Below are positions 1,152 through 32,070 of a stretch of 64,000 nt of DNA, piece by piece. Location of the stretch: NCBI GenBank assembly GCA_963996595.1, contig CAXEHU010000097.1, positions 35,593 through 99,592 on the forward strand, written 5' to 3'. The notes under the pieces were generated by a model. It was given only the letters and a program-made list of their open reading frames with translations. It was not told where the DNA came from and made no database searches. Position 1 is the stretch's first letter. Each line of letters opens with the position of its first letter. Origin of the DNA: an uncultured Curvibacter sp. Its GTDB lineage: Bacteria; Pseudomonadota; Gammaproteobacteria; Burkholderiales; Burkholderiaceae_C. The position numbers and the translations under genes are program-made.

Positions 1152-1191
1152 CCTAAGGCCACGCGAACGAAGGCATACCACGAGAGCGAAA

Positions 1192-1279: not shown

Positions 1280-1295
1280 CATCCGATGACCGGGG

Positions 1296-2276
1296 TTAAT
1301 CTACCTTCGCGCCGGAAGCCTTGACGACGGCCGCCCACTTCACGTGCTCGGCGTCGATGAAACGCGTGAACTCCTGCGGGCTGATGCCGCCAGGAATCGC
1401 GCCCTGGGCCAGCAGGCGCTCCTGCACACCCGGGGTGGCCAGGGCCTTCGCGGTTTCCTGCTGGATGCGGTTGACGATATCGGCCGGGGTACCGGCCGGC
1501 GCGAGCAGGCCGAACCAGCTGCTGGCCTCGAAGCTCTTGAGCTTGCCAGCCTCCTCCACCGTGGGCACGTCGGGCAGTGCGTTGGAGCGCTGCGCGCTGG
1601 TGACGGCAAAGGCCTTGAGCTTGCCCGACTTGATGTGCGGCATGGAAGAGGGCAGGTTGTCGAACATCACATCCATATTCCCCCCCACCATGTCCAGCAG
1701 CGCCGGGCCCGAGCCACGGTAGGGAATGTGGGTCATGAAGGTCCCGGTCATGGACTTGAACAGCTCGCCCGCCAGGTGGATGGAGGTGCCGTTGCCACTG
1801 GACGCCATGTTGAGCTTGCCCGGGTTGGCCTTGGCGTACTGGATGAAATCGGCCACCGTGTTGATGTTGAGGGCCTTGGCCCTGTCGGCGTTCATGACCA
1901 TCACATTCGGCACACCGGCCACGAGCGTGATGGGCGCGAAATCCTTCTGCGGCTCGTAGGGCAGCTTGGCGTAGAGCGCCTTGTTGATGCCGTGTGTGCC
2001 CACCGTGCCCATGAGCAGGGTGTAGCCGTCGTTGGGCGACTTGGCCACCACCTCGGCCCCCAGGTTGCCGCCCGCGCCCGCGCGGTTCTCGACGATGAAG
2101 GACTGGCCAAAGGCCTTGCTCAGCTCCGGCGCGATCGCGCGCGCCAGGATGTCCGTGGTGCCGCCCGGCGCGAAGGGCACGACGATCTTCACGGGCTTGT
2201 TCGGCCAGGCCCCCTGGGCCCAGACCGCGGGGGCACAGGCCAGCAGGGCGGCGGCGATGAGATGGCGACGGTTCAT
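1296..2276 (-). CDS. Bug-family (TctC-like) tripartite tricarboxylate transporter substrate-binding protein
   Basis: 326 aa with a signal peptide ([21 protein letters not shown]) followed by [19 protein letters not shown], the hallmark Bug/TctC N-terminal motif. Confidence 0.9.
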
Positions 2277-2473
2277 GTTGGGGGTCTCCTCTTGTTTGAT
2301 CGGGTCAGTGTAGGGAGAGGACTGGCTTCTGTGACCTAGGGTTTGTCTCGGTGTTTGTCGCCTGGGCTACGGTCTCCTCTGACGCAGGGGGTTAGCGCGC
2401 ATCTTTTGAGCAAAAGTCGTTGATTCACGAAGGTGCCGCTTTTGGGGCCAGTTGAACGCCACGAGCACGCCTG

Positions 2474-3382
2474 TCAGGAGCGCGTCGACGTCATAGCACT
2501 CCTGAGCCACTTCAACAATGCCGTACGCCTGGCGTCTTGCTCCAGGGGTGTGGGTGAGAGAACGACATATTCGCTTCCGTCCGCAACAAAACCAAATGGC
2601 GCCACCAAACGATCCTCCCGCAGATCTGCCTCGACCATGAACTCTGACGCGATGGCCACGCCCAAGCCAGAGCTTGCAGCCTGTAAGCTGAGATAGAAGT
2701 GTTCGTAGTGCTCATCACCAGAACTGAGCACACTGCGCGAACTGAGCTCGCTCCAACGCACCCACGCATCAGGACGGGTGCGGGTATGCAGCAGGCGTAC
2801 GGCGTCACCTTTGCGGAGGCGACGCCAAACTTCACGCGTGCACACCGGACCGACTCTTTCAGCGGTCACAGTTTCCACGCAACACTGACCGCCCGTTTGA
2901 AAGTCATTCCGGCGCAGCGCCAGGTCGACTTGTTGCCGAGCGAAATCTACCGCCCCCCCTGCGGTGAGCAAATGAATTTCGTAGTCTGGGTACTCAGACC
3001 GGAACTCCGGAAGCCTGGGCACGAGCCAGCGTATGGCGATGGTCGGCTCGCATGACAAAACGAGCGGTCTGAGGGTCTGGTCCTGAGCCCGAACCTCGTG
3101 AACGGCCCGGGACAAGTCCCGCATGACCTTCTGGGACGCGGCGAAAAGCGTTCGCCCCTGTGGCGTCAGAAATACGGCCCGATTACGCCTCTCAAACAGC
3201 GCCACACCCAGTGAAGCCTCCAGCTGCTTCACCTGCCGACTGACCGCGCCATGGGTCACGCAGAGCTCTTGGCTCGCCATCACAAAGCTTTGATGCCGAG
3301 CAGCCGCCTCGAACACCCTGAATGCGTTCATGGGGGGGAGTCGGGAGGCAAGGGACTTTATTTGTGATTTTTTCTCACTCAT
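2474..3382 (-). CDS. LysR-family transcriptional regulator (GcvA-like subgroup)
   Basis: RLPPMNAFRVFEAAARHQSFVMASQELCVTHGAVSRQVKQLE is a GcvA-type winged-HTH N-terminus. Divergent from a LysE exporter gene. GC is lower than in the neighbouring genes. Confidence 0.9.
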   Translation of the reverse strand: MSEKKSQIKSLASRLPPMNAFRVFEAAARHQSFVMASQELCVTHGAVSRQVKQLEASLGVALFERRNRAVFLTPQGRTLFAASQKVMRDLSRAVHEVRAQDQTLRPLVLSCEPTIAIRWLVPRLPEFRSEYPDYEIHLLTAGGAVDFARQQVDLALRRNDFQTGGQCCVETVTAERVGPVCTREVWRRLRKGDAVRLLHTRTRPDAWVRWSELSSRSVLSSGDEHYEHFYLSLQAASSGLGVAIASEFMVEADLREDRLVAPFGFVADGSEYVVLSPTPLEQDARRTALLKWLRSAMTSTRS

Positions 3383-3497
3383 TTTGATCAGAATAAATCG
3401 ATTTTCCAGCCATGTACATAGAGGAAAAATAGGCGCTTCAGGGGTACATCTTTTTCAATTGAGTGAATCAGACTCACATTATTGAGGGGTTTTCTTT

Positions 3498-4106
3498 ATG
3501 TTCGAACTCATCGCCGTCGCAAGCATCACGCTGCTGGCGGTCATCAGTCCCGGGGCGGACTTTGCGATGGTCACTCGAAACAGTCTGCTGCACGGCCGAC
3601 AAGCCGGATTGCTGGCTGCTGCAGGCATCGCAGCCGGCGTCCAGTTGCATGTCCTCTACTCGATGCTGGGCGTGGCTGTCCTGATCCAGCAGTCACCTGA
3701 ATGGTTTTCCGCCATCAAAGTCTGCGGCGCCCTGTACCTCATGTATGCGGGATATCAAACATGGAGCAGCGCCACCCTTAGAGCACGCGGCGAGAGGTTT
3801 GTCGCTCATGAACTGGGACGATGGAAAGCGCTGAGCGCTGGTTTTTTTACCAACGCACTGAATCCAAAAACCACGCTCTTCGTGCTGAGCGTTTACAGCC
3901 AGGTCATTGAGCGCAATACCCCTGTGGCGGTTCAAATCGGGTACGGGCTGTTTATGTCTGCGACACATGCAGTCTGGTTCAGCGTGGTCGCAGTATTCTT
4001 TTCAGAATCTACCCTGCGGCAGCGGATGTTGCAGCATCAGAAGACGCTCAATCGCTTCATTGGCATCGCCCTAGGCGGCTTGGGCATGACATTGGCCCTG
4101 TCGTGA
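3498..4106 (+). CDS. LysE/RhtB-family amino-acid exporter
   Basis: 202 aa, polytopic. ISPGADFAMV and FFTNALNPKTTLF are typical of LysE/RhtB translocators. GAGGGG RBS upstream. Confidence 0.85.
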   Translation: MFELIAVASITLLAVISPGADFAMVTRNSLLHGRQAGLLAAAGIAAGVQLHVLYSMLGVAVLIQQSPEWFSAIKVCGALYLMYAGYQTWSSATLRARGERFVAHELGRWKALSAGFFTNALNPKTTLFVLSVYSQVIERNTPVAVQIGYGLFMSATHAVWFSVVAVFFSESTLRQRMLQHQKTLNRFIGIALGGLGMTLALS

Positions 4107-4556
4107 CCGCAACCTTCGTATTCGACTTTGTACCGCCGCAAGCGGAATGCACGTCGCGCCCCGCCCGCTTAAAACCATCAACCGACAGGCCACGCACAGG
4201 AGGTCGCACGGCCCGGGCATTTTCGCGCTGCCCCTGAAGGCGGCAGTGGTCAGCTAAGCCTGCTCACACCTGGCCATGGCGACGCAGCAGGGATTGTTGT
4301 GTCGCCATGCCCCGCGCTTCGACACCGCACCCTTGCGCCCCAACCAGAAGCCGCAGCCAGTGCCTTGCGCGGGCCCCACGCAAATCTGCGGTGCGAAAGA
4401 GGTACGCCGAGTGCCCGGCGCTTGTCGCCCCAAGCTCCCCCGAAGACCCATGCTACGGCACGCTTGCGGCGGCGGCTAGTTTCCTCGTTGGAAGCTTGAA
4501 AAGCTCGACGGTAATGGGTTTGAAATGACTCAAGCCATCGGCTTGTTAGTGTCCGC

Positions 4557-19199: not shown

Positions 19200-19529
19200 T
19201 CAGGGCTCCTGCACCGACAGCTGCAACGAGGCGTACCAGCGCGCCAGGTTGTCGATGTCCTGGTCACTCAGCGGCTTGGCGATCACGCTCATCACCTCGT
19301 GGTGGCGCTTGCCGCTGCGGTAGTTGCGCAGCTGCTCCACCAGGTAGATCTCGGGCTGCCCGGCCAGGTGCGGCACGTTGGGCTGCATGGACAGGCCTTG
19401 CGGCCCATGGCAGACCGCGCAGGCCGTGGCCGCGCGCATCTTGCCGGCCACCGCATCGGCGTGCGCCGTCGTCGCCAGGGCCCAACCCAGGCCAGCCCAC
19501 AGGCCGGCCATCATCATGCGTTGCTTCAC
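19200..19529 (-). CDS. Monohaem c-type cytochrome
   Basis: Signal peptide followed by CAVCHG haem motif. The start is uncertain: either the GTG at 19529, which has GGGAGG 6 nt upstream, or the ATG triplet at 19517. Confidence 0.8.
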   Translation of the reverse strand: MKQRMMMAGLWAGLGWALATTAHADAVAGKMRAATACAVCHGPQGLSMQPNVPHLAGQPEIYLVEQLRNYRSGKRHHEVMSVIAKPLSDQDIDNLARWYASLQLSVQEP

Positions 19530-19544
19530 GCAAACCTCCCTCTC

Positions 19545-19580
19545 AAAAAAAGCGACGGAGATCGTCACGACCTCCGTCGC
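19545..19580 (-). terminator. Intrinsic-terminator-like hairpin between dehydrogenase 2 and its cytochrome c gene
   Basis: The minus strand reads GCGACGGAG-gtcgtgacgat-CTCCGTCGC followed by TTTTTTT. Confidence 0.75.
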
Positions 19581-19595
19581 ATCGGCTCAGACCGC

Positions 19596-20876
19596 TCAGT
19601 TGCTGTACGTCACGCGGTAGATCGCGCCCACATAGTCATCCGAGATCAGCAGCGAGCCGTCCTTCATCACGGCCACGTCCACCGGGCGGCCCTTGTAGAC
19701 GCCGTTGGCGTCCAGCCAGCCCTCGGCAAAGACCTCGTGCTTGCCGGCCGTGCCATCGGGCTTGATCGCCACGAAGTCGATCAGCGCGCCGCTGGGCTTG
19801 CTGCGGTTCCACGAGCCGTGCGCGGCCACGAAGACCCCGCCCTGGTACTTGGCCGGGAACATCTTGCCGTTGTAGAAGGTCATGCCCAGCTGCGCCTGGT
19901 GCGCGGGGAACTCCACCTGCGGCTTGGTCCACTTGGCCGGGGCCTTCATGTCCTTGAGATCGGGCGCGGCCGCGGTGCCGGCGATCTGGATGTTGTTGCC
20001 GTGGATGTAGGGGTAGCCGAAGTGCTCGCCGCCCTTTTGCGTGATGCGGTTGAGCTCGCCCGGCGGGATGTCGTCGCCCATGCCGTCGGTCTGGTTGTCG
20101 GTGAACCACACGGTCTTGTCGCGCGGGTTGATGTCCATGCCCACCGAGTTGCGCACGCCCACAGCCACCACCTCGCGCTTGGAGCCGTCAAACGGGTCCA
20201 GCGCGATCATGCCGCCGATGCCGATCTTCTCGTACAGCGCCACCTTCTCCTTGGGCTGCACGTTGTAGGGCTGGCCCAGGGTGATGTAGAGGCGGCCGTC
20301 GTCGCTGACGCGGCAGGTGCGCGCGCCGTGGTTGAAGGACTCCTCGTCCTCGGGGATCAGCTTGCCCTGCGGCACCACTTCGATCACCGCCACGTCCGGG
20401 CCCTCGTAGAAGAACTCGGCCGCCGGGAAGTTGAGCACGCGGTTGTGCTCCACCACGATCAGGAAACCGTCCTTGGTCCAGCACACGCCGTTGGGCACCT
20501 TGAAGTTCAGCGAGGGCGCAAAGGCCTTGACCTCGTCGGCCGCGCCATCACCGTTGCGGTCGGTCACGGCCCACACGCGCGTCTTGCGTGTGCCCACGAA
20601 GAGCATGTTGGTGGACGGTGCGACGGCCATGTGGCGCGCATCGGGCACCACCGCATAGAGCTCGATCTTGAAGCCCGGCGGCAGCTTGACGTTCTTCAGG
20701 TTGGCGCGGATCGCGTCGGCGTTGCGCCCTTCCTGCGGCACGACCGGGATGTTCAGATCGGTGGAGGCCACCTTCATCTGCTTGAGCGTGGACAGATTGT
20801 CCCGGCCCGATTGCGCTGCGGCCGCGGCGGCGAAGCCCGCCGCGAGCAGGGCCAGGCCCAGCTTACGTGTGATCAT
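19596..20876 (-). CDS. PQQ-type sorbosone/sugar dehydrogenase family beta-propeller protein, periplasmic
   Basis: 426 aa with a signal peptide. PPGFKIELYA, GVRNSVGMD, WFTDNQTDGMGDDIPPGELN and FGYPY match the L-sorbosone dehydrogenase-like subgroup. Confidence 0.85.
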   Translation of the reverse strand: MITRKLGLALLAAGFAAAAAAQSGRDNLSTLKQMKVASTDLNIPVVPQEGRNADAIRANLKNVKLPPGFKIELYAVVPDARHMAVAPSTNMLFVGTRKTRVWAVTDRNGDGAADEVKAFAPSLNFKVPNGVCWTKDGFLIVVEHNRVLNFPAAEFFYEGPDVAVIEVVPQGKLIPEDEESFNHGARTCRVSDDGRLYITLGQPYNVQPKEKVALYEKIGIGGMIALDPFDGSKREVVAVGVRNSVGMDINPRDKTVWFTDNQTDGMGDDIPPGELNRITQKGGEHFGYPYIHGNNIQIAGTAAAPDLKDMKAPAKWTKPQVEFPAHQAQLGMTFYNGKMFPAKYQGGVFVAAHGSWNRSKPSGALIDFVAIKPDGTAGKHEVFAEGWLDANGVYKGRPVDVAVMKDGSLLISDDYVGAIYRVTYSN

Positions 20877-21217
20877 GTTTGCTCCTCTGGTTTTCTAGGT
20901 CTGTCCGGCGCGCCACCCGGCGCACCGGTCTGCTGATTAAGCCCACACGCTGGAGGTCGTGCAAGGCGGCAGGAAGCAAGTCACGTTGGCAGTGGGGCTG
21001 TTGTGTCTCGATTTGGAACACTCGGCGCAAGACGGCGCATCGACCAATCAACACCAAAGCACAGCACACCGATCTTCGGCGCCACGCCCATCAATATTTC
21101 TTATATCGCTTAGTGTGCGCAGCGCATGAACTCTCCGTGGAAACCCTAGATGAACCAATGTGCACCATGCCTACGATCGGTCGGTTTAAATCAACGAGAA
21201 CTTCTCCGGAGATACAC

Positions 21218-22489
21218 ATGCGCAAGTTCATTCCCTTGGCAGGCGTGCTGCTCGCCGCGCTGCTGGCTGGCTGCCAGTCCACCCCGCCGCAATCTGCGGT
21301 GACGACCACCCCCTCGGCAGGCGCCGTGGCCGCAGGCCAGCCCGCCTGGAAGCAGGGCATGGCCGCCAGCCAGGCCAGCTCCACGCTGGCTCCGCTGCCG
21401 GGCAAGAACACCGTGACCACCGCGGCCGAAATCCCGCTGGACAAGCTGCGCCTGCCCCCGGGCTTCAAGGTCGAGGTCTGGTCCACCGGCACGCCCGGCA
21501 TCCGCGCCATCAGCCGCGGCGAGAGCGGCAAGATCTACGGCGGTACGCGCGGCCTGGGCCGTGTCTACGAAATCACCGACAACGGCAAGGAGCGCACCAG
21601 CCGCGTGGTGGTCGACAAGCTCAAGCAGCCCGCCGCCACCCTCCACAACGGCAATCTCTACGTGATGGCCATCGACAAGGTGCTGCGCTACGACGGCATC
21701 GAAAAGAACCCCAACGTGGCGCCCGTGGACATGACGGCTGCCTTCAAGCTGCCCCCGCTGGAGCACCACAACTGGAAGTACATCCGCTTCGGGCCAGACG
21801 GCAAGCTCTACGTGCCCTTCGGCGCACCGTGCAATATCTGCACGCTGCCCACCGATGAATACGCCCAGATCCGCCGCTACAACGCCGACGGCTCGGGCAT
21901 GGAAGTCATCGCCACCGGCGTGCGCAACACCGTGGGCTTCGACTTCCACCCCGTCACCGGCGAACTCTGGTTCAGCGACCACGGCCGCGACTGGATGGGT
22001 GACGACACCCCCGAGGACGAACTCAACCGCCTGCCCAAGCCGAGCTGGTGGAAGCTGGGCATGGGTGGCACGCCCTTCTTCGGCTTCCCCTACTGCCATG
22101 CCAAGGGCGTGGCCGATCCGGACGTGAAGAAGGCCAACCCCTGTGAGGGCGTGACCCTGCCCGTCACCACCGTGGGCCCGCACGCCGCGGCCATGGGCGT
22201 GCACTTCTACACCGGCGACATGTTCCCGCCGGTGTTCAAGAACGCCATCTTCCTGGCACGCAAGGGCTCGTGGAACCGCAGCACCAAGTTCGGCTTCGAC
22301 GTGGTGGCCGTCACCGCCAACCCGGACGGCAGCGGCGCCACCGTCACGCCCTTCATGACCGGCTTCGCCGACCCCGCCGCCAACACCTTCTGGGGCCGTC
22401 CGACCTACTTCCTGCAGATGCCCGACGGCGCGCTGCTGGTCTCCGACGAGCAGACCGGCGCGATCTATCGCGTGTCCTACGCCAAGTAA
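21218..22489 (+). CDS. PQQ-type sorbosone/sugar dehydrogenase family beta-propeller protein, lipoprotein (paralogue of 19596..20876)
   Basis: Lipobox LLAGC. PPGFKVEVWS, GVRNTVGFD, WFSDHGRDWMGDDTPEDELN and FGFPYCH. Start trimmed to the ATG at 21218, with a GGAG RBS. Confidence 0.85.
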   Translation: MRKFIPLAGVLLAALLAGCQSTPPQSAVTTTPSAGAVAAGQPAWKQGMAASQASSTLAPLPGKNTVTTAAEIPLDKLRLPPGFKVEVWSTGTPGIRAISRGESGKIYGGTRGLGRVYEITDNGKERTSRVVVDKLKQPAATLHNGNLYVMAIDKVLRYDGIEKNPNVAPVDMTAAFKLPPLEHHNWKYIRFGPDGKLYVPFGAPCNICTLPTDEYAQIRRYNADGSGMEVIATGVRNTVGFDFHPVTGELWFSDHGRDWMGDDTPEDELNRLPKPSWWKLGMGGTPFFGFPYCHAKGVADPDVKKANPCEGVTLPVTTVGPHAAAMGVHFYTGDMFPPVFKNAIFLARKGSWNRSTKFGFDVVAVTANPDGSGATVTPFMTGFADPAANTFWGRPTYFLQMPDGALLVSDEQTGAIYRVSYAK

Positions 22490-22512
22490 GCCACGGCGCT
22501 TGCCAAGCACAA

Positions 22513-22541
22513 GCAGGGCCCTCGCGGGCCCTGCTTTTTTT
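22513..22541 (+). terminator. Intrinsic-terminator-like hairpin between dehydrogenase 3 and the dihaem cytochrome gene
   Basis: GCAGGGCC-ctcgcg-GGCCCTGC followed by TTTTTTT. Confidence 0.75.
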
Positions 22542-22558
22542 CCTGACAGACCCTCATC

Positions 22559-23137
22559 ATGAAGACCTTTCTCCACACCTTGCTCGCCGCCCTGCTGTTC
22601 ACCGCCAGCGTGTGCGCCACGGCCCAGCAGCCCCCGCGTCTGGAGCTCTGTGCCTCCTGCCACGGGCCGCAAGGCAACTCGCAGATCCCGCAATTCCCCT
22701 CGCTCGCTGGGCAGCCGCGCATCTTCATGGAGAACCAGCTCGTTCTCATCCGCGAAGGGCTGCGCGACATCCCGCCCATGAAGGGCGTGCTCGACGGCCT
22801 GGACGACGCCGCCTTGATCGAACTCGCCAAGTACTACGCCGCACAGACGCCCGCGCCCATGCCCGGTTCCGTAGACGTGGCGCGCTACCAGCGCGGCAAG
22901 GAGCTGGCCGCCACCAGCCTGTGCGGCAGCTGCCACCTGCCAACCTACCAAGGCCGCGACCAGATCCCGCGCCTGGCCGGCCAGCACGAAACTTTTCTGC
23001 GCGAGGTCATGCTCGAATACCGCGACAAGCCCGGCCCAGGCCGCGACACCGTCATGACCAATGCGCTGCGCGGTTTCAGCAACGCCCAGCTTGATGACAT
23101 GGCGCACTTCCTCGCACATTTCGGTAAACAACCCTGA
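22559..23137 (+). CDS. Dihaem cytochrome c (c4-like)
   Basis: 192 aa with a signal peptide and two CxxCH motifs (CASCH, CGSCH), one in each half. Confidence 0.88.
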   Translation: MKTFLHTLLAALLFTASVCATAQQPPRLELCASCHGPQGNSQIPQFPSLAGQPRIFMENQLVLIREGLRDIPPMKGVLDGLDDAALIELAKYYAAQTPAPMPGSVDVARYQRGKELAATSLCGSCHLPTYQGRDQIPRLAGQHETFLREVMLEYRDKPGPGRDTVMTNALRGFSNAQLDDMAHFLAHFGKQP

Positions 23138-23227
23138 GTCCATCCGTTCGCGTTGAGCCTGTCGAAACGCAGCCTTTGACAGGCTCAGGCGGAGCGGAGA
23201 GAGATGGACGCCTAAAATGGGCGCCCC

Positions 23228-24142
23228 ATGAGCAACGACTTCCCCCCCGGCAAGCCCGCCGGCCCCCTGCGCCGTGCGCCGCGCCCCGAAGGCGCGGCTG
23301 CGCCCAAGCCGGGCGCGCCCGCCGGCAGCAGTGCCACCAGCCGCATCAACAAGCGCATGGCCGAGCTCGGCCTGTGCTCGCGCCGTGAGGCCGACGCCTG
23401 GGTGGAGAACGGCTGGGTCAAGGTCAACGGCAAAGTCGCCGAGATGGGCCAGCAGGTGGGGCCCACCGACCGCATCGAGATCGACAAGCAGGCCCAGAAC
23501 CAGCAGGCCACGCAGGTCACCATCCTGCTCAACAAACCCATAGGCTACGTCAGCGGCCAGGCCGAGGACGGGCACGAGCCCGCCGTGGTGCTGGTGCAGG
23601 CGCAGAACCGCTGGCGCGAAGACCGCGCGCCCATCCGCTTCAACGGCAGCCAGCTCAAGGGCTTGGCCCCCTCGGGCCGGCTCGACATCGATTCCACCGG
23701 CCTGCTGGTCCTCACGCAGGACGGCCGCGTGGCGCGCCAGCTGATCGGCGAAGACTCGACGATGGAAAAGGAATACCTGGTGCGCGTGGTCTACCTGGGC
23801 ACTCCGGCCGCAGCCAGCGCGCCCACCGAACTGCAGACCATCCACGAGCACGACCCCGTCTCTACCAATGTGCAGGCCGTCTTCCCGCCCAGCCAATTGG
23901 CCCGGCTGCGCCACGGCCTGAGCCTGGACGGCCAGGCCCTCAAGCCCGCCAAGGTGGACTGGGAGAACCCCGAGCAGCTGCGCTTTGTGCTGACCGAAGG
24001 CAAGAAGCGGCAGATCCGCCGCATGTGTGAACTGGTGGGCCTCAAGGTCGTGGGCCTCAAGCGCGTGCGCATCGGCCGCGTCATGCTGGGCAACCTGCCC
24101 GTGGGCCAGTGGCGCTACCTTGCGCCGCACGAGAAGTTCTGA
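23228..24142 (+). CDS. RsuA/RluB/RluF-family rRNA pseudouridine synthase with an S4 domain
   Basis: S4-like RINKRMAELGLCSRREADAWVENGWVKVNG, then LLNKPIGYV, RLDIDSTGLLVLT and KKRQIRRM. Confidence 0.85.
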   Translation: MSNDFPPGKPAGPLRRAPRPEGAAAPKPGAPAGSSATSRINKRMAELGLCSRREADAWVENGWVKVNGKVAEMGQQVGPTDRIEIDKQAQNQQATQVTILLNKPIGYVSGQAEDGHEPAVVLVQAQNRWREDRAPIRFNGSQLKGLAPSGRLDIDSTGLLVLTQDGRVARQLIGEDSTMEKEYLVRVVYLGTPAAASAPTELQTIHEHDPVSTNVQAVFPPSQLARLRHGLSLDGQALKPAKVDWENPEQLRFVLTEGKKRQIRRMCELVGLKVVGLKRVRIGRVMLGNLPVGQWRYLAPHEKF

Positions 24143-24158
24143 CGCCCCTGCCCCGGGG

Positions 24159-24185
24159 CTTGAAACCCCGGCCCCCGCCCATAAT
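24159..24185 (+). promoter_or_regulatory. Sigma-32 (heat-shock)-like promoter upstream of htpG
   Basis: CTTGAAA (24159-24165), then 12 nt later CCCATAAT (24178-24185). This resembles the CTTGAA..CCCCATnT heat-shock consensus. Confidence 0.55.
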
Positions 24186-24238
24186 TCCCGGTTTTGCCGG
24201 CGCTGCCGGCTCCTTGTTTTGTACTGTCATCTCCAGCC

Positions 24239-26173
<1,935 letters not shown>

Positions 26174-26190
26174 TTCGCTGCACGCCAAAC

Positions 26191-26216
26191 AAAAACCGCC
26201 TTCGGGCGGTTTTTTG
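26191..26216 (+). terminator. Rho-independent terminator of htpG
   Basis: AAAAACCGCC-ttcg-GGCGGTTTTTT. Confidence 0.85.
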
Positions 26217-26304
26217 TTGCGTGATCGACTGCGACTTTCAACCCATTACGGTAGTTTGCGACCGCTATTGAACGCCCGCTTCGCAGGATAGGGGGCACTT
26301 TCAA

Positions 26305-26366
26305 TATCCCCCAAATGGGGGATAGACATATCCTGCAAACCCATAAGAATGGATAGGCATATTCTT
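26305..26366 (+). promoter_or_regulatory. Cluster of inverted repeats in the AT-rich leader of the nuclease-helicase islet (candidate promoter/operator)
   Basis: TATCCCCC-aaat-GGGGGATA (26305-26324) and AAGAAT-N10-ATTCTT (26345-26366), 23-84 nt upstream of the ATG at 26389. Confidence 0.35.
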
Positions 26367-26388
26367 ACTGCACTCAGAACCACAGTTA

Positions 26389-27192
26389 ATGAGTCCTACT
26401 CCGGACATGCCCATCCCTTTTTCGCCCACGCCGACCTATCAGTTCAGCAATGGCCACATTGCCTGCTCCGCATTTACCGTCACAGACGAAACAGCATGCC
26501 AGCAATGGATAAAAGGCGATGTCGCCAAACGAGTTTACGACCAGCCAATGAAGCTGGATTTTCTGGACACCATTACCGCCATCAGGAGCGATGGCTTTGA
26601 TACAACGCGGCTGGAGGCCTATGTCCAAGCGTCACCGCCTCAGGCTACCGATGGAGACGTTGGCGAGGGTATAGCAGACCTTTTCCTGATGGAGCGCTTC
26701 GGCGTTTATCTTCCGACGAATAGAAGGCGGGATTTACGCACACCCAAGGGAAGTCACCCTGGCGCGGATATTGCGGGCTATGTCCCGAATGGAGCCGGAG
26801 GAGCGGATTTCATTTTCGGTGAGGTTAAGGCGTCAGGCCAGAAAGCTGCACCCCCTTCCGTGATGACTCATACAGATTCAGGGATGCCAGCCCAGCTTGT
26901 GCGGCTAGCACTGGATTCCGCCATTCAACGGCAGCTCCTGTTTTACCTTCAGGCACGCGCGAAGGGATCGCCCGCAGAGGCGCTTCACATAGAAGCACTA
27001 AAAACTCTGGCAACTGGAAAATACAAGTTGATTGGCGTCCTAGTCCGAACAACGTCACCAAATCAGTCTGATGTCTCTGGTCCAGCCAGCAAATTACAGG
27101 CTGCCATACCGACGTCGCAACCCTGCTCGCTATATGTTCTTCACACCGGCCTCTCGACCGACGACTGGTTGGTACACTGTCAACCCACCTAG
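26389..27192 (+). CDS. Putative PD-(D/E)xK-fold nuclease, HamA (DUF1837)-like candidate defence effector
   Basis: 267 aa in a low-GC islet. Signature residues are E93 (GEGIADLFL), D127 (HPGADIAGY) and E145-V-K147 (FIFGEVKAS, codons 26821-26829). The stop lies 8 nt before the helicase start. Family assignment is not verified by a profile search. Confidence 0.6.
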   Translation: MSPTPDMPIPFSPTPTYQFSNGHIACSAFTVTDETACQQWIKGDVAKRVYDQPMKLDFLDTITAIRSDGFDTTRLEAYVQASPPQATDGDVGEGIADLFLMERFGVYLPTNRRRDLRTPKGSHPGADIAGYVPNGAGGADFIFGEVKASGQKAAPPSVMTHTDSGMPAQLVRLALDSAIQRQLLFYLQARAKGSPAEALHIEALKTLATGKYKLIGVLVRTTSPNQSDVSGPASKLQAAIPTSQPCSLYVLHTGLSTDDWLVHCQPT

Positions 27193-27200
27193 TACATACC

Positions 27201-30200
27201 GTGGTCTCGCCAACCAATTTCCCCTCAATTGAAACCGCATATGTGCAAGCAATGCGCAGGCGGGTAGTCACGGCCATAGGGGCCGCAATTTCGGTTGAAC
27301 CCATCAATGAGTACGCAACGCTTGTTGCCGAGCTCCTGACTTGGGATGCCCTTGAGGGAGCGACCCGACTCACGCAAACACAGAAGGACGCTGCGAAACG
27401 CGCCTTCGTGCTTCTTCGAGACGCACAATCCACCTCAAAAACCAAGAACTGTCAGCTGGCTTGGTGGTTAAGAACCGCCAGCTTGGCCATACTTGCGGAC
27501 GTGCCTCAGGATGGGCGCAAGCTATTGGAATTTGCGTCACTAGAAGTTGAATGTCAACCTAGTGACAACTGGCTGGAATTCACCCGGCAAAGCGTTTGGA
27601 CAAGCTGGCTAGGTCTATTACGTCATCGATCCACAGAGGATGTCCGTCAGTCTCGAATGGCATTGGCTGAGCTTCGCGCAAAACAGGTCATCTATGAGGG
27701 TGTCTTTCTAGAGTCCCTTGACGATAAAACAGCCGCTCGGCAGGCCGCTTTGGAGTTGATGGGGTTTTACTCCCTTGGAACGGCCGCAGAGCGGCTTTCC
27801 GAATACCTTGAGAGGGGAACTGCCGACGGGGCAGGTGACATTAATGCGCAGCTCGATATGTACTTTGATCGAGTCATGGGGGTATTGGACAAAGCGGGAA
27901 ATGTTTTCAACATTGACATCATTTTCCTGTTGCGCCCCACAGCGCACTGCTTAGCTTACGGCTCACTTAGGGCCGCTACGCGCGGCGCGAACTTCTTGAC
28001 TCGGCAATTTGCCGAAAATCTGATTTCTCGCCCTGCGCAACCCCTTTTCCAACTGCTCCCACCGCAAAGAGAGGCCCTGAGAGGCCAGGGATTAGCGTCG
28101 AACGTCCACCGCTCTGTTGTTGTTAATTTTCCGACATCAAGTGGAAAAACTTTACTTGCCCAGTTTGGAATACTGCAGAGTTTGAATGACTTGGGTTCGG
28201 AACGAGGGTGGGTTGCATACGTGGCGCCAACACGTGCACTTGTGAATCAGGTCACAAGCAGGCTCCGGCGGGACTTCGCGCCATTGAATAAGCGTGTGGA
28301 GCGGCTATCACCAGCCCTAGAGTTTGACACCATTGAGTTATCTGCATTGTCGCCGAAGGATACCGAAGTTGATGGACCTCCAGTCGATGTATTGGTCTGC
28401 ACGCCAGAAAAACTAGACCTCTTGATCCGTCGGGAAGAGCTCTCTTCACAATTAGGTCGTTTGGCACTCGTTGTCGTGGATGAGGCACATGGGCTGGGCG
28501 CCAAGGGTGAGCGCGCAATCAAGCTTGAGCTATTGCTTTCCATCGTCAATCGTGAACATGTGAGTGCGCGATTCCTATTACTCACACCCTTTATCAGTAA
28601 TGCAAAACAGGTTGCTCAATGGCTAGACAATGAAAGTTTTAAAGACTACTCCATTGAAGCGGAATGGGTGCCAAATGACCGCATCATTGGAATTGTCACG
28701 CCTCCGGATAAATCCGAGTTTAAACGCGGAGAGCCTGCTGGGTTTTTGAACTTTGAACCTATCGCAACTCGGAAAGCAACCCTCCATCTCGATGATGTAT
28801 TGAAGCTCGAGGGGGTTTCGCCCGAACTGGGTCTGACAGTATCTAAGTTAAGCACCAACGCAGGAAGCTTATCTACGGCTGCGGCTCAAGTTTTGTCGAA
28901 TCGAGGGCCAACGGTCTTGTTGTGTCGAACAGTCTCGCAAACATGGGCCTGTGCCGAAGAGCTTGCTCAGACTTCGGAGCTTTCTGCTGAAAACAAAGAT
29001 ATCTGCGGCGCCGTGGCACGGTTTGCAACCTACGAACTGGGAGCCTCATCCCCTCTCGAGAATCTCTTGGGGCAAGGTATCGGTGTACATCACGCCGGAC
29101 TTCCTGAGGAGGTGGCACAGGCAATCGAGTATCTTTTCGAGAAACAAGCTCTCACCGCCTTGTGCGCAACGACAACACTGGCGCAAGGCGTGAATTTTCC
29201 AATAGCCAACCTTGTCATTTCTTCGATATACCCCCCAACACGAGATGGCCAGCCAATGTCATATGCTGACTTCTGGAACATTGCGGGGCGCGTTGGACGA
29301 GTCGATCAAGAGGCGATTGGTGTAGTGGCTCTTGCGGCCAAAGACGCCGAAAGTAAACAAAGGTGTGAGCAGTTCCTTAAACGGTCGATGGCTGATTTGG
29401 TCTCAACTTTATTGGGCATGGTTGATGACCTGAACACACTGGCAGCAGACAAAGGCCTAGAAGCATTGGTCTGGAAGAAGGAGTGGTCCAACTTTAGTCA
29501 ATTCATTGCCCACACACTCAGACAGGTTGGCGCTTCGAAGTTTGCTGATCAGGTGGAACTGGTTTTGCGCGGAACACTTGGCTATCAGTCCATCCGTGAG
29601 AAAAGCGTCCCCCTCGCGAATGAGCTCTTGCGGCTAACGCGCCGCTATGCAGAAGGCATGGCACAGCAAATGGGCGTCGTCAAGCTTGTGGATTCCACCG
29701 GGTTTTCTTTTGAGAGCGTGCGTGGTGCGCTCGCACGCCTGAGCGAGGCCGGTGACCTACCTGACCTCGTAAATCCAACGGCACTCTTCTCGGGAAAAAG
29801 CAAGACGCTCCAAGATGTAATGGGAGTTTTATTGACGATTCCTGAGGTGAAAAATGAACTTGTAGAGAGCGGTGGTGGGCACGGGTCTCGTATCGCCGAC
29901 ATGCTCTCGGACTGGGTTCACGGCGTGTCACTAGAAGTTTTGTCGGCACGTTATTTTTCGACTGGGACTGAAGACGAGGACGCGCTGGCAAAGTGCGTCC
30001 GCAGCTTCAAGCGGCTATCCATGACGGCCGCTTGGGGCCTCTCATCCGTGCTTGCTATGAAGATCGGGGAAGGCCTTGAGGAGTTGCCTGATGAGCTTAG
30101 AAAATCTGTGGTCAATATTCCATCCATGGTTCTATATGGAGTTTGGGACAGTAAGCAAATTGCGCTTCGCTCAGCAGGTGTTCCAAGAAATGCGGCAATT

Positions 30201-30350
30201 GCTCTCGCAAAACACACAACCTCAGCAGCCACTCCGTTTGCTACTCGAAAGTCACTGAAAGATGGCGGAGCACAACTATGGTCAAACGCCCTCGGCCCCC
30301 AGCGCGGTGCGGACTACTTTCGCGTGTGGCAAATGCTTGAAGGGGTTTGA
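27201..30350 (+). CDS. Large SF2 DEAH-box helicase of the Ski2/Hel308/Lhr type, HamB-like candidate defence helicase
   Basis: 1049 aa. Motif I is PTSSGKT (28131-28151) and motif II is VVVDEAH (DEAH at 28479-28490). GVHHAGLPEEV, CATTTLAQGVNFP and AGRVGR (29286-29300) are also present. The regions of about 285 aa N-terminal and about 330 aa C-terminal to the core carry no motif I recognise. GTG start; a downstream ATG is possible. Confidence 0.8.
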   Translation: MVSPTNFPSIETAYVQAMRRRVVTAIGAAISVEPINEYATLVAELLTWDALEGATRLTQTQKDAAKRAFVLLRDAQSTSKTKNCQLAWWLRTASLAILADVPQDGRKLLEFASLEVECQPSDNWLEFTRQSVWTSWLGLLRHRSTEDVRQSRMALAELRAKQVIYEGVFLESLDDKTAARQAALELMGFYSLGTAAERLSEYLERGTADGAGDINAQLDMYFDRVMGVLDKAGNVFNIDIIFLLRPTAHCLAYGSLRAATRGANFLTRQFAENLISRPAQPLFQLLPPQREALRGQGLASNVHRSVVVNFPTSSGKTLLAQFGILQSLNDLGSERGWVAYVAPTRALVNQVTSRLRRDFAPLNKRVERLSPALEFDTIELSALSPKDTEVDGPPVDVLVCTPEKLDLLIRREELSSQLGRLALVVVDEAHGLGAKGERAIKLELLLSIVNREHVSARFLLLTPFISNAKQVAQWLDNESFKDYSIEAEWVPNDRIIGIVTPPDKSEFKRGEPAGFLNFEPIATRKATLHLDDVLKLEGVSPELGLTVSKLSTNAGSLSTAAAQVLSNRGPTVLLCRTVSQTWACAEELAQTSELSAENKDICGAVARFATYELGASSPLENLLGQGIGVHHAGLPEEVAQAIEYLFEKQALTALCATTTLAQGVNFPIANLVISSIYPPTRDGQPMSYADFWNIAGRVGRVDQEAIGVVALAAKDAESKQRCEQFLKRSMADLVSTLLGMVDDLNTLAADKGLEALVWKKEWSNFSQFIAHTLRQVGASKFADQVELVLRGTLGYQSIREKSVPLANELLRLTRRYAEGMAQQMGVVKLVDSTGFSFESVRGALARLSEAGDLPDLVNPTALFSGKSKTLQDVMGVLLTIPEVKNELVESGGGHGSRIADMLSDWVHGVSLEVLSARYFSTGTEDEDALAKCVRSFKRLSMTAAWGLSSVLAMKIGEGLEELPDELRKSVVNIPSMVLYGVWDSKQIALRSAGVPRNAAIALAKHTTSAATPFATRKSLKDGGAQLWSNALGPQRGADYFRVWQMLEGV

Positions 30351-30596
30351 TTGATGCTAGAAGCGAGTTGCTTGTGCTCGCTGTTGAGTCACCTCAATAC
30401 TTCTGTATCTGGCCATTAACCTCCAACGGTTCATACGCCTGGAACTAAGGCACATGAACTCAGGCCGCACACTTGCTGAGCACCCAGCCCTAGCAGCAAC
30501 GCCCCGCGCGCACCATCCGTCGGCTTCTGTCAATTTGCTTTTTACAGCCTGCCCCTCTAGCATCGCCCCACCCCACAACAACAACGGAGACAAGGC

Positions 30597-31946
30597 ATGA
30601 CCTTCCCCACCTGGCAGCGCGTGGCGCTGCCCCTGCTGCTGGCCGCCCTGGCCGGCTGCGCCCAGAACCCCGGCACCTCTGCTGCCCCACCCGAAGCCGC
30701 GCCCCAGGCCGCCGCCTGCCCGAAGGGCACACCCGACGGCGCACGCTGCCTGCGCGGCCAGGACTCGGCCAATGCCCATTACCTCATCGTCATACCCGCG
30801 CAGTGGAACAAGATGCTGGTGGTGCACGCCCACGGCGGCCCCACGCTGGGCGAGCCCAAGGCCAGCCGCGCGGACGAGGACATCGAACGCTGGGCCATCA
30901 CGGTACGTGCGGGCTACGCCTGGGCGGGCTCGGTCTTCCGCCAGGGCGGGGTGGCCGTGCGCAGCGCGGCCGAGGACACGGAGCGCGTGCGCCGCATCTT
31001 TGTGCAGCATGTGGGCCAGCCCACACGCACGCTGCTGCACGGCCAGTCCTGGGGCGCCAATGTGGCGGCCAAGGCGGCGGAGATGTACGCCGGCCCGGGC
31101 ATGCGTTCGCCCTATGACGCGGTGCTGCTGAGCAGCGGCGTGGTGGCCGGCGGCACCCGATCCTACGACTTCCGGCTAGATCTGCGCGTCGTCTACCAGT
31201 ACCTGTGCAACAACCACCCGCGTAGCGACGAGCCGCCATACCCGCTGTGGATGGGCCTGCCGGCCGACAGCAAGCTGACGCGCGCCGAGCTCAACGCGCG
31301 GGTGGAAGAGTGCCTGGCCACGCGCAAGCCCGCGGCCCAGCGCACGCCCGAGCAGGCGCGCAAGCTCAAGACCATCGTGGACGTGATCAAGATCCCCGAG
31401 TCTTCGGTGGCCGCGCATCTGGCCTGGGCTACCTGGCACTTCCAGGACATCGCCCAGAACCGCACCCAGGGGCGCAACCCCTTCCGCAACGAGGCCGTGC
31501 GTTACCAGGGCTCGGCGGATGATGCGGCGCTCAACGCCGCCGTGCTGCGCTACCGCGCCGACCCGGCCGCCGTGGCGCGTTTTGCCGACGACACGGACCT
31601 GACGGGCCGCATCGGCGTGCCGGTGCTCACGGTGCACGGCATCCACGACGCCACGGCCTTTGTGGAGCTGGAGAGCGCCCTGCGCCAGACCTTCGAGCGC
31701 GCGGGCAATGGTGCCCGCCTGGTGCAGGTCTACAGCGACCACAGCGAGCACAGCTACCTGAGCGACCCGACCTATGTGGCGCTGTTCGACGCGCTGCTGG
31801 GTTGGGTGGAAAAGGGCGAGAAGCCCACGCCGGCCAGTGTGGCAGCGGGCTGCCAGCGCGCCGAGGCCAGCTTTGGCCCAGGCTGCCGGATCCGCCCGGA
31901 CTACCAGCCCGCGCCGCTGGAGGCGCGGGTGGCGCCGCGGCAGTGA
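30597..31946 (+). CDS. Alpha/beta-fold serine hydrolase lipoprotein (function unknown)
   Basis: Lipobox LAALAGC and nucleophile-elbow-like HGQSWG. 449 aa at native high GC. Confidence 0.65.
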   Translation: MTFPTWQRVALPLLLAALAGCAQNPGTSAAPPEAAPQAAACPKGTPDGARCLRGQDSANAHYLIVIPAQWNKMLVVHAHGGPTLGEPKASRADEDIERWAITVRAGYAWAGSVFRQGGVAVRSAAEDTERVRRIFVQHVGQPTRTLLHGQSWGANVAAKAAEMYAGPGMRSPYDAVLLSSGVVAGGTRSYDFRLDLRVVYQYLCNNHPRSDEPPYPLWMGLPADSKLTRAELNARVEECLATRKPAAQRTPEQARKLKTIVDVIKIPESSVAAHLAWATWHFQDIAQNRTQGRNPFRNEAVRYQGSADDAALNAAVLRYRADPAAVARFADDTDLTGRIGVPVLTVHGIHDATAFVELESALRQTFERAGNGARLVQVYSDHSEHSYLSDPTYVALFDALLGWVEKGEKPTPASVAAGCQRAEASFGPGCRIRPDYQPAPLEARVAPRQ

Positions 31947-32070
31947 GGCCCCCGACACCGGGTAAGCTGGCCCCTATACCCCCGGGCCTTATGGGTTTTC
32001 AGGTAGGTATTAATGCATAGGGGGTAACACCCTAGGTCCATCCGGTGGTTGGGCCTATGCTCGCGCTCCA

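What the first reader, a model, noticed from the sequence alone, without database searches (positions are those of the whole stretch)
26217..30596. Low-GC two-gene islet encoding a PD-(D/E)xK-like nuclease and a 1049-aa Ski2-like helicase: candidate anti-phage module (divergent Hachiman or an unclassified relative)
Seen in sequence: composition drops directly after the htpG terminator (26191-26216). My hand counts of 100-nt samples give 55% GC at 27201-27300 and 45% at 28601-28700. The flanks give 61% at 25001-25100 (htpG) and 73% at 31001-31100. GC recovers near 30480. The islet holds exactly two same-strand genes, separated by 8 nt (TAG at 27190-27192, GTG at 27201). Gene A (267 aa) has a restriction-endonuclease-like triad: E93 in GEGIADLFL, D127 in HPGADIAGY, and E145-x-K147 in FIFGEVKAS. 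Gene B has a complete SF2 core of the Ski2/Hel308/Lhr type (PTSSGKT, VVVDEAH, GVHHAGLPEEV, CATTTLAQGVNFP, AGRVGR). No integrase, transposase, tRNA or obvious direct repeats flank the islet.

Established knowledge: the Hachiman defence system has this architecture, with a small DUF1837/HamA nuclease encoded directly upstream of a large Ski2-like helicase, HamB. Compact atypical-GC islets are typical carriers of defence cargo.

Inference: this is a nuclease-helicase immunity module. I cannot tell whether it falls inside known Hachiman families. Large parts of both proteins carry no motif I recognise.
Basis: partly seen in the sequence, partly recalled or inferred. Interest (0 to 1): 0.85.

Follow-up and report, generated by a model that had tools for sequence, protein, structure and literature searches.

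The report
Hachiman-like nuclease–helicase defence islet (PDC-M23)
A foreign, low-GC two-gene insert right after the htpG gene encodes a small nuclease and a large helicase that belong to a catalogued but untested candidate anti-phage family (PADLOC PDC-M23), and predicted structures show this family is a distant sister of the known Hachiman defence system.

Summary
Two co-directional genes, A (26389-27192, 267 aa) and B (27201-30350, 1049 aa), fill a 4.1-kb stretch of 52.8% GC in a 66-67% GC genome (z = -5.7). GC3 is about 0.53 against 0.85-0.95 in the neighbours. The stretch starts directly after the htpG terminator.

Both proteins are full-length members of PADLOC's candidate system PDC-M23 (A 3e-60; B E = 0, 1079 bits). 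A misses Pfam HamA/DUF1837, but its predicted structure has one significant PDB match, HamA of E. coli Hachiman. Its invariant D90/E93, D127 and E145-x-K147 align in register with HamA's catalytic motifs. B's best full-length structural matches are HamB chains (TMq 0.71), including the N-terminal helical bundle. There is no C-terminal OB-like domain.

The A-B pair is conserved in 75 of 80 loci across bacteria and archaea, and the other five are contig ends. It is absent from all 80 htpG loci of related Comamonadaceae. Three of the closest relatives carry other low-GC cargo at the same spot: SoFic, a SLATT-TGT-QueC-TIR cluster, or small membrane ORFs.

This is a new member of a known kind, a divergent Hachiman-like module. 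No phage assay of PDC-M23 was found in the searchable literature. Interest is modest.

The parts
26186..26219 (+). htpG intrinsic terminator hairpin, which is the left border of the variable site
   Evidence: The inverted repeat CAAACAAAAACCGCC/GGCGGTTTTTTGTTG (I13) folds at -24 kcal/mol with z = -4.65. Homology among six related htpG loci runs through this hairpin and is lost right after it, at about 26220.
26221..26388 (+). Islet leader (168 nt, low GC) with one promoter-like site at 26323-26350
   Evidence: It is conserved only in L001, which carries the same pair. It holds a single sigma-70-like consensus match, TAGACA-16-AAGAAT, which is no more than chance gives (1 found against 2.4 expected). 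No Rfam family reaches threshold. Promoter function is inferred, not shown.
26389..27192 (+). Gene A: 267-aa HamA-fold PD-(D/E)xK nuclease (PDC-M23A), predicted effector
   Evidence: PADLOC PDC-M23A at 3e-60, with no Pfam or NCBIfam hit. The AF2 model has pLDDT 89.5 and pTM 0.88. Its only significant Foldseek PDB hit is HamA 8vxy_A (E = 2.6e-4, probability 1.00, TM 0.51/0.54, 251 columns). E93, D127, E145 and K147 are invariant and D90 is nearly invariant. hhalign against a canonical HamA profile aligns the three catalytic motifs in register (E = 5.6e-4, probability 30%).
27201..30350 (+). Gene B: 1049-aa HamB-like Ski2/Hel308-type SF2 helicase (PDC-M23B), predicted sensor and regulator
   Evidence: PADLOC PDC-M23B at E = 0 (1079 bits, full length); the next-best models are HamB1 at about 1e-47. 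Pfam finds DEAD, ResIII and Helicase_C. By PDB sequence search, HamB 8vx9_B is the only prokaryotic defence-system helicase among the strong hits (3.9e-25 for the single sequence, 5e-42 for the profile). The AF2 model has pLDDT 79.5. The top three Foldseek hits are HamB chains (E = 1e-26, TMq 0.71, about 1190 columns), against TMq 0.44-0.53 for Hel308 and Pol-theta helicases. Motifs I, II (DEAH) and VI are invariant in 46 homologues.
30351..30357 (.). Right border of the shared islet
   Evidence: Synteny with the Hylemonella MAG (L001; 92% identity over window 23206-30357) ends at 30357. After that point L001 has 6.3 kb of unrelated high-GC genes and the window has 1.65 kb, until livG at 32002.
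30362..30382 (+). 7-bp hairpin just after gene B's stop; possible weak terminator (low confidence)
   Evidence: It appears in the fold of 30345-30420 (z = -2.86). No T-run follows it, and the terminator scan does not report it.

Best explanation
The islet is a horizontally acquired two-gene anti-phage module of the PADLOC candidate family PDC-M23. By architecture and fold this family is a sister of the Hachiman (HamAB) system.

Proposed working, inferred from HamAB biochemistry and not shown here: A and B are made from one transcript, and the 8-nt gap between them is short enough for translational coupling. They form a 1:1 complex in which B's N-terminal helical bundle holds the A nuclease in check. 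B uses ATP to survey DNA. When it meets aberrant or damaged DNA, such as 3' ends or phage replication intermediates, its helicase activity releases or activates A. A's D/E...D...ExK metal site then degrades DNA indiscriminately, which aborts the infection.

The module sits at a recombination-accessible hotspot immediately 3' of the htpG terminator. Related strains carry other cargo there, including defence genes.
For: Shown here:
- Both proteins are full-length matches to PDC-M23A and PDC-M23B.
- The A-B pairing is conserved. 75 of 80 genome loci with an A relative (27-49% identity; Bacteroidota, Pseudomonadota, Bacillota, Nitrosopumilus and others) have a B relative directly downstream on the same strand. 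The other five are contig ends.
- A has the HamA fold as its only significant PDB match. Its catalytic residues are invariant. They match the residues shown to be essential in S. thermophilus HamA, which are D90, E93, D127, E147 and K149 (PMC13064477), and E138/K140 in ECOR31 HamA (PMC12278908).
- B matches HamB over its full length, including an all-alpha N-terminal domain at residues 10-296. According to PMC12278908, that N-terminal bundle is the HamA-binding element present in all HamBs and absent from other Ski2 helicases.
- In PADLOC, canonical HamB's best non-HamB family is PDC-M23B (8e-43), and the reverse also holds.
- The module is foreign and accessory. GC z = -5.7 and GC3 is about 0.53 against about 0.9. 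It is absent from 80 of 80 htpG loci of relatives with 75-92% HtpG identity, and present only in one Hylemonella MAG.
- Three of the closest relatives carry different low-GC cargo at the same junction: SoFic (PADLOC 8e-115) in L147, a DUF4231/SLATT + TGT + QueC + ThsB-TIR cluster in L090, and small membrane ORFs in L089.
Against: - No experiment: no searchable paper mentions PDC-M23. PDCs are 'guilt-by-embedding' predictions, of which only about half of those tested protected (4 of 8 in PMC12881386; 0 of 2 in PMC12409345).
- Sequence evidence linking A to DUF1837 is weak. The window protein has no Pfam hit. 7 of 23 close homologues hit only at E >= 0.031, and 0 of 50 distant ones hit at <= 0.01. 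The PDB profile search does not find HamA. hhalign probability is only 30%.
- The structural TM-score for A is moderate (about 0.5, rmsd 6.3 A).
- The A:B complex, the DNA-damage trigger and abortive infection are all extrapolated from a relative that shares about 14-18% identity.
- B lacks the C-terminal OB-like domain of the best-studied HamB, so substrate sensing may differ.
- No promoter is demonstrated.
Confidence: 0.8

Rival explanations
1. The pair is a DNA-repair or recombination module. A Hel308/Lhr-like helicase with an associated structure-specific nuclease would serve the host's or a mobile element's own DNA metabolism, not immunity.
For: B's helicase core is close to Hel308, Hjm and Pol-theta helicases (NCBIfam Hel308-type models at 1e-34 to 1e-22; Foldseek probability 1.00). 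HamAB itself responds to DNA damage (PMC12278908), so the boundary between repair and defence is thin.
Against: B's scores are far below every equivalog cut-off (119 bits against 887, and 97 against 1200). The pair is absent from 80 of 80 related htpG loci. Its composition is foreign. It sits at a site that elsewhere carries SoFic and TIR/SLATT genes. Hel308-type structures cover only the core (TMq 0.44-0.53), while HamB covers the whole protein (0.71).
Confidence: 0.07
2. The pair is a methylase-less restriction-like system. A would be a sequence-specific type II/IIS-like endonuclease and B a translocase, acting directly on incoming DNA without abortive infection.
For: HamA's closest non-Hachiman structural relatives are type IIS enzymes (PMC12278908 and PMC11914072). 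A's second Foldseek hit is EcoO109I. S. thermophilus HamAB shows a loose 5'-CNNNG-3' cleavage preference (PMC13064477 abstract).
Against: The EcoO109I hit is not significant (E = 0.012, probability 0.41, TM 0.24). The islet has no methyltransferase or specificity gene. Characterised HamAB degrades host DNA as well.
Confidence: 0.06
3. The module is inactive or decaying cargo, or a selfish addiction module, that merely hitch-hiked into a variable site and has no current defence role.
For: Only about half of the tested PDC candidates protected. No promoter is demonstrated.
Against: Both ORFs are intact. All catalytic and helicase motifs are preserved. The Hylemonella copy is 94-95% identical at protein level with both ORFs full length. 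Identical copies recur in six independent metagenome contigs.
Confidence: 0.07

Closest known systems
PADLOC candidate system PDC-M23 (PDC-M23A + PDC-M23B; PADLOC-DB v2.0.0)
   Same: Both proteins match the family HMMs over their full length (A 3e-60; B E = 0, 1079 bits). The gene order and adjacency are the same. All 50 sampled relatives from other phyla also match.
   Different: Nothing structural: this locus is a member. The family has no published function or test that I could find. The link to Hachiman comes from the analysis here.
Hachiman type I-A / III-A (E. coli ECOR31 HamAB, PDB 8VX9/8VXA/8VXY; DEC14B HamAB)
   Same: A small single-domain PD-(D/E)xK nuclease gene lies directly upstream of a large Ski2-like helicase gene. 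A has the HamA fold, with D/E, D and ExK motifs in the same order and register. B matches HamB over its full length, including the N-terminal helical bundle, and has intact DExH motifs.
   Different: A is below the Pfam HamA threshold and is missed by the PADLOC HamA models. Identity is 14% for A and 18% for B. B is about 125 aa shorter, and its C-terminus is all-helical, without the OB-like barrel. B has a beta insertion at about 494-537 between the RecA domains. A's family is discrete, with about 500 clusters at 50% identity.
AbpAB / Hachiman type I-B (E. coli K-12 YfjL/YfjK; PDB 8ZUE)
   Same: It is a nuclease plus SF2 helicase pair. The helicase cores are related (hhalign probability 98%).
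   Different: AbpA is 538 aa, with an N-terminal Cap4 nuclease and a catalytically dead DUF1837 (Pfam; PMC11914072). Gene A is single-domain with an intact catalytic triad. hhalign finds no similarity between the A family and AbpA. AbpB is 729 aa, and the hhalign match covers only its helicase core (residues 112-441).
Hel308/Hjm and Pol-theta helicase domain (Ski2-like DNA helicases)
   Same: They share the RecA1/RecA2 core, the WH/ratchet-like helical region and the helicase motifs.
   Different: They match only part of B (about 780-890 alignment columns, TMq 0.44-0.53, against about 1190 columns and 0.71 for HamB), consistent with lacking B's roughly 290-aa N-terminal helical bundle. They have no nuclease partner gene. 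They are housekeeping and vertically inherited, whereas B is accessory.

Membership tests
PDC-M23 (PADLOC phage-defence candidate) | Protein matching the PDC-M23A HMM | tested here: met
   PDLC04529 at 3e-60 (residues 7-255 against profile 1-247 of 265), plus two further PDC-M23A models.
PDC-M23 (PADLOC phage-defence candidate) | Protein matching the PDC-M23B HMM | tested here: met
   PDLC04531 at E = 0, 1078.7 bits (residues 12-1049 against profile 18-1060 of 1060).
PDC-M23 (PADLOC phage-defence candidate) | A and B genes adjacent | tested here: met
   The gap is 8 nt and both are on the same strand. The same arrangement occurs in 75 of 80 loci elsewhere.
Hachiman (HamAB) | HamA carries the DUF1837 domain (Pfam PF08878) by sequence model | tested here: not met
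   The window protein has no Pfam hit at E <= 1. 7 of 23 close homologues hit only at E >= 0.031, below the gathering score. 0 of 50 distant relatives hit at <= 0.01. The window protein hits no PADLOC HamA model at E <= 1, and 1 of 50 relatives hits HamA1 at 3.8e-5. A canonical HamA control scores 2.6e-10 in Pfam and 2e-114 in PADLOC. For this reason I do not file the pair as Hachiman in the strict sense.
Hachiman (HamAB) | HamA fold (restriction-endonuclease-like core with HamB-binding insertions) | tested here: met
   Foldseek against the PDB gives HamA 8vxy_A as the only hit with E <= 0.001 (2.6e-4, probability 1.00, TM 0.51/0.54, 251 of 267 residues aligned). The TM-score is moderate.
Hachiman (HamAB) | Conserved D-E(x)K catalytic motif in HamA | tested here: met
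   E93, D127, E145 and K147 are invariant in 23 and in 50 homologues, and D90 is nearly invariant in the close set. hhalign places them opposite D81/E84, D118 and E137/K139 of canonical HamA. E93 lies in helix 88-104, D127 just before strand 128-133, and E145/K147 in strand 139-149.
Hachiman (HamAB) | HamB is an SF2 Ski2-like helicase with intact ATPase motifs | tested here: met
   Multiple PADLOC HamB1 models hit at 1e-44 to 1e-47. PDB HamB scores 3.9e-25 (single sequence) and 5e-42 (profile). Motifs I (P311-T317), II (D427-H430) and VI (G696-R700) are invariant.
Hachiman (HamAB) | HamB-specific N-terminal alpha-helical bundle (NAH/TPR-like) that binds HamA | tested here: met
   Residues 10-296 are modelled as about 12 helices. 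The full-length alignment to HamB has TMq 0.71 over about 1190 columns, against 0.44-0.53 for Ski2-like helicases, which Tuck et al. report lack this bundle (PMC12278908). Binding itself was not tested. The PADLOC HamB HMMs do not cover residues 1-266.
Hachiman (HamAB) | 1:1 HamA:HamB complex, with the nuclease activated by helicase ATPase on damaged DNA | not testable with these tools
   This needs co-purification and biochemistry, or a complex prediction. The structure tool takes single chains only.
Hachiman (HamAB) | Protection against phage (abortive infection) | not testable with these tools
   No experiment on PDC-M23 was found in the searchable literature.
Hachiman subtype III-A (ECOR31-like) | C-terminal OB-like barrel in HamB | tested here: not met
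   Residues 737-1047 are modelled as helices only. The literature says the OB fold occurs only in this subtype (PMC13064477 and PMC11914072), so it does not define Hachiman as a whole.
AbpAB / Hachiman type I-B | N-terminal Cap4 nuclease fused to a catalytically inactive DUF1837 | tested here: not met
   A is a 267-aa single domain with no Cap4 hit and an intact catalytic motif. The AbpA control shows Cap4 at 1e-55 plus HamA at 3.7e-41.
Housekeeping Hel308 / Lhr / RecQ / RecG helicases | Score above the NCBIfam equivalog cut-off, and conserved position in the clade | tested here: not met
   The best scores are 119 bits against a cut-off of 887, and 97 against 1200. B is absent from 80 of 80 related htpG loci.
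Restriction-modification | Cognate methyltransferase or specificity subunit next to the nuclease | tested here: not met
   The islet holds only two genes. Neither protein has a methyltransferase domain.

The most novel reading that the evidence does not exclude
PDC-M23 is a functionally distinct sister lineage of Hachiman and not just a fast-evolving subtype. It has its own discrete nuclease family (about 500 clusters at 50% identity, unreachable from DUF1837 by HMMER). Its helicase lacks the OB-like domain and carries a beta insertion between the RecA domains. It might therefore sense a different nucleic-acid cue, or be regulated differently, from the DNA-damage/3'-end sensing described for ECOR31 HamAB. 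Testing it would extend the 'genome-integrity sensor' model to a second family that spans bacteria and archaea.
Probability: 0.2. Interest if true: 0.5.

Novelty: new member of a known kind. Interest (0 to 1): 0.3.

Why it matters
The finding gives a concrete mechanistic hypothesis for an uncharacterised PADLOC candidate family, PDC-M23: it is a Hachiman-like nuclease-helicase pair with an intact catalytic site. It also gives mutants to test: D127A, E145A/K147A, K316A and D427A/E428A.

It shows that standard sequence models (Pfam HamA, PADLOC HamA) miss a whole HamA-fold family found in many phyla and in archaea, so Hachiman-type immunity is probably under-counted.

It also identifies the 3' end of htpG in Hylemonella-like Comamonadaceae as a core-genome hotspot without an integrase, where different cargo, including defence genes, swaps in and out. 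That is a useful place to look for further systems.

None of this overturns current understanding.

Tried and rejected
1. An apparent second, degenerate copy of gene B upstream in the window was an artefact. Locus FASTA files hold many records, and the 65-68% hits belonged to L002, not L001. A self-BLAST and tblastn of the window show no paralogue.

2. Sequence routes from gene A to HamA mostly failed. phmmer and two profile searches against PDB sequences found no HamA. Pfam was sub-threshold or empty. hhalign against AbpA found nothing. Only hhalign against canonical type I-A HamA gave a weak alignment in the correct register. The HamA profile I could build was shallow (77-100% identity, Neff about 1.5), which limits that test.

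3. I looked for att-like direct repeats, a tRNA, and an integrase or transposase. None was found.

4. Rfam on the leader and trailer gave only two sub-threshold hits, both over the htpG terminator.

5. Gene A has no relative on PLSDB plasmids or INPHARED phages, so there is no evidence for a plasmid or phage vehicle.

6. A literature search for 'PDC-M23' returned zero papers.

7. The terminator scan does not list the htpG terminator, although folding and the repeat finder confirm it.

8. It has native-like GC and GC3 (0.72 and 0.90). I treat it as outside the module.

Full report
**Observation.** The window holds two co-directional ORFs: A at 26389-27192 (267 aa) and B at 27201-30350 (1049 aa). 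They are separated by 8 nt. The stretch 26221-30357 is 52.8% GC. Equal-sized windows elsewhere in the 64 kb average 66.6 +/- 2.4% and never fall below 61.1%, giving z = -5.7. GC3 is 0.55 (A) and 0.52 (B), against 0.85-0.95 in seven neighbouring genes. All quoted motifs sit at the stated residues. The htpG terminator hairpin at 26186-26219 is real (z = -4.65). There is no tRNA in the window, no convincing flanking repeats and no integrase or transposase. Gene callers elsewhere start B at the ATG at 27252. Homologue N-termini align with residues 1-17 of the long form, so the GTG at 27201 is the better start.

**What the proteins are.** PADLOC places both in its candidate system PDC-M23. A scores 3e-60. 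B scores E = 0 (1079 bits) and is covered end to end.
- B also hits many HamB1 models at about 1e-47, and it has Pfam DEAD, ResIII and Helicase_C domains. It is far below every NCBIfam equivalog cut-off for Hel308, Lhr-like, RecG or RecQ.
- A has no Pfam or NCBIfam hit. Its 23 closest homologues (28-100% identity) keep E93, D127, E145 and K147 invariant. So do 50 relatives at about 22-49% identity from other phyla.
- Those 50 relatives are all PDC-M23A (down to about 1e-106). None reaches Pfam HamA at E <= 0.01, and only one touches PADLOC HamA1 (3.8e-5).
- An exhaustive profile search finds about 500 clusters at 50% identity for A's family (377 at E <= 1e-10) among 1.84 billion representatives. 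It is a discrete family of moderate size.

**Link to Hachiman.** An AlphaFold2 model of A (pLDDT 89.5, pTM 0.88) has a single significant match in the PDB. That match is HamA of the E. coli Hachiman complex (8vxy_A): E = 2.6e-4, probability 1.00, TM 0.51/0.54, 251 columns. The next hit, EcoO109I, is not significant.

The model of B (pLDDT 79.5) consists of:
- an all-alpha N-terminal domain (residues 10-296);
- RecA1;
- a small beta insertion (about 494-537);
- RecA2;
- an all-alpha C-terminal region (737-1047).

Its three best PDB matches are HamB chains (E = 1e-26, TMq 0.71, about 1190 columns). Hel308, Hjm and Pol-theta helicases reach only TMq 0.44-0.53. According to Tuck et al. [quoted passage not shown]

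I fetched a canonical pair from a Serratia plasmid as a control. Its A protein is annotated HamA (Pfam HamA 2.6e-10, PADLOC HamA1 2e-114). Its 1177-aa helicase hits HamB1 at E = 0, and its best non-HamB family is PDC-M23B at 8e-43.

hhalign of the PDC-M23A profile against a profile of this canonical HamA is weak (probability 30%, E = 5.6e-4, 88 columns). It does align the three catalytic motifs in order and register: GDxGE (D90/E93 with D81/E84), GxD (D127 with D118) and ExK (E145/K147 with E137/K139). These are the residues shown to be essential in S. thermophilus HamA (D90, E93, D127, E147, K149; PMC13064477) and in ECOR31 HamA (E138/K140). AbpA, the Cap4-fused inactive DUF1837 of E. coli K-12, shows no similarity to A.

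**Conservation of the pair.** Of 80 genome loci that encode an A relative, 75 encode a B relative (28-65% identity, nearly full length) directly downstream on the same strand. The remaining five end within about 600 nt of A. Hosts include Bacteroidota, Pseudomonadota, Bacillota, Planctomycetota, Nitrosopumilus and a nanoarchaeon. No A relative is found on PLSDB plasmids or in INPHARED phage genomes.

**Genomic context.** The nearest genome is a Hylemonella sp. MAG (Comamonadaceae). It is 90-92% identical over window 19218-30357 and carries the same pair (A 94%, B 95%). Synteny stops 7 nt after B's stop. The MAG then has 6.3 kb of high-GC genes (a GGDEF protein, a LysR regulator, a phosphonate-type ABC transporter, a dehydrogenase) where the window has the 449-aa gene. 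Synteny resumes at livG. Identical copies with the window's own flanks recur in six metagenome contigs.

Among 80 metagenomic loci with HtpG at 75-92% identity, none has A or B. In the closest of these, homology runs through the htpG stop and terminator and is lost at about window 26220.

| Locus | Low-GC cargo after the htpG terminator |
|---|---|
| Window, L001 | PDC-M23 pair (A + B) |
| L147 | SoFic (PADLOC 8e-115) and two small ORFs |
| L090 | DUF4231/SLATT, TGT-like, QueC-like and ThsB-type TIR genes |
| L089 | Small membrane ORFs |

The site immediately 3' of the htpG terminator is therefore a variable hotspot without an integrase that takes up foreign cargo, including defence genes, in this clade. 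Exchange presumably happens through recombination in the conserved flanks; that step is inferred.

**Mechanism (inferred).** By analogy with HamAB (PMC12278908, PMC11914072, PMC13064477):
1. A and B form a 1:1 complex through B's N-terminal bundle.
2. B's ATPase/helicase surveys DNA.
3. On aberrant or damaged DNA, B licenses A's metal-dependent nuclease.
4. A degrades DNA non-specifically and aborts the infection.

Only the parts list, the folds, the catalytic residues, the pairing and the accessory, hotspot context are shown here. The absence of the OB-like C-terminal domain (reported for one Hachiman subtype only) and the beta insertion may mean a different substrate preference.

**Membership and novelty.** The locus is a member of PDC-M23, and all defining features were tested and met. 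It is not Hachiman in the strict sense by the usual sequence criterion, because DUF1837/PF08878 was tested and not met. It does have the HamA fold, the HamA catalytic motif, a HamB-like helicase and the HamB-type N-terminal domain. So it works like Hachiman and is best described as a Hachiman-like sister family.

PDCs are PADLOC 'guilt-by-embedding' candidates. Of those tested in the papers I read, 4 of 8 and 0 of 2 protected. PDC-M23 appears in no searchable full text. It adds a structural bridge from PDC-M23 to Hachiman and a newly described hotspot. Interest is modest (0.3).

Noticed in passing
L090:4437-7070 (metagenome contig Ga0208121_100332), at the position equivalent to window ~26221: A different low-GC (44-53%) four-gene cluster occupies the same htpG-terminator junction. 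Its genes are DUF4231/SLATT (8e-22), a TGT-like protein (PADLOC TGT 2.6e-24), a QueC-like protein (Pfam 3e-40) and a ThsB-type TIR protein (Pfam 8e-24; also PADLOC PDC-M50B 1.5e-16). I did not match this combination to a named system.
   Followed up: partly
L147:10217-12224 (metagenome contig Ga0208633_100088), same junction: A SoFic defence protein (PADLOC 8e-115; Fic_N, Fic and SoFic-like_C domains) sits here, followed by two small ORFs (115 and 126 aa) with no family hit. Together with L090, L089 and the window, this marks the htpG 3' end as a cargo hotspot that takes up defence genes.
   Followed up: partly
window 30358-32001 compared with L001:13970-20263: The segment between gene B and livG is also variable, but with native-like high GC. 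The window has one 449-aa ORF (30597-31946; GC 0.72, GC3 0.90) with no Pfam or PADLOC hit and a lipoprotein-like N-terminus. The Hylemonella MAG instead has a PAS-GGDEF protein, a LysR regulator, a phosphonate/phosphite-type ABC transporter and a 2-hydroxyacid-dehydrogenase-like gene.
   Followed up: partly
L169:1769-5741 (Rhizobium etli plasmid pRetMIM1e, NC_021909.1): This 1041-aa helicase scores as PDC-M23B (1e-177) and HamB1 (2e-78). Its upstream 284-aa partner has no Pfam or PADLOC hit and is not found by tblastn with gene A. It may be a further HamA-like partner family. It lies next to ThiF-like and MPN/JAB genes.
   Followed up: no
Proteins P0167 (684 aa), P0231 (452 aa), P0169 (349 aa): Some members of gene A's family carry N-terminal extensions of 90-430 residues ahead of the nuclease domain. 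This is reminiscent of the N-terminal fusions (Cap4, peptidase) described for HamA types I-B to I-D. The extensions were not analysed.
   Followed up: no
L002 (JARJFC010000076.1, labelled Leptospira sp. 96542), 540-4471: Apart from the Hylemonella MAG, the closest genome-collection relative of the pair (A 49%, B 65%) is on a 13-kb contig attributed to a Leptospira isolate. Another close homologue is flagged 'UNVERIFIED_CONTAM' in a Comamonas assembly. The taxonomic labels of these contigs may be unreliable.
   Followed up: no
window 2474-4106: This is the only other GC dip in the window (about 0.56). It holds a divergent pair, a LysR-type regulator (302 aa, minus strand) and a LysE/RhtB-like exporter (202 aa, plus strand), judged by eye from the translations. 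It looks ordinary.
   Followed up: no
window 26280-26370: The gene A leader contains G5/C5 hairpin-forming runs (GGGGGCACTTTCAATATCCCCC and CCCCCAAATGGGGG). It also has two similar 15-mers, GGATAGACATATCCT and GGATAGGCATATTCT, about 35 nt apart, which overlap the two hexamers of the promoter-like site. These are conserved in L001 and could be operator sites. They were seen by eye only.
   Followed up: no
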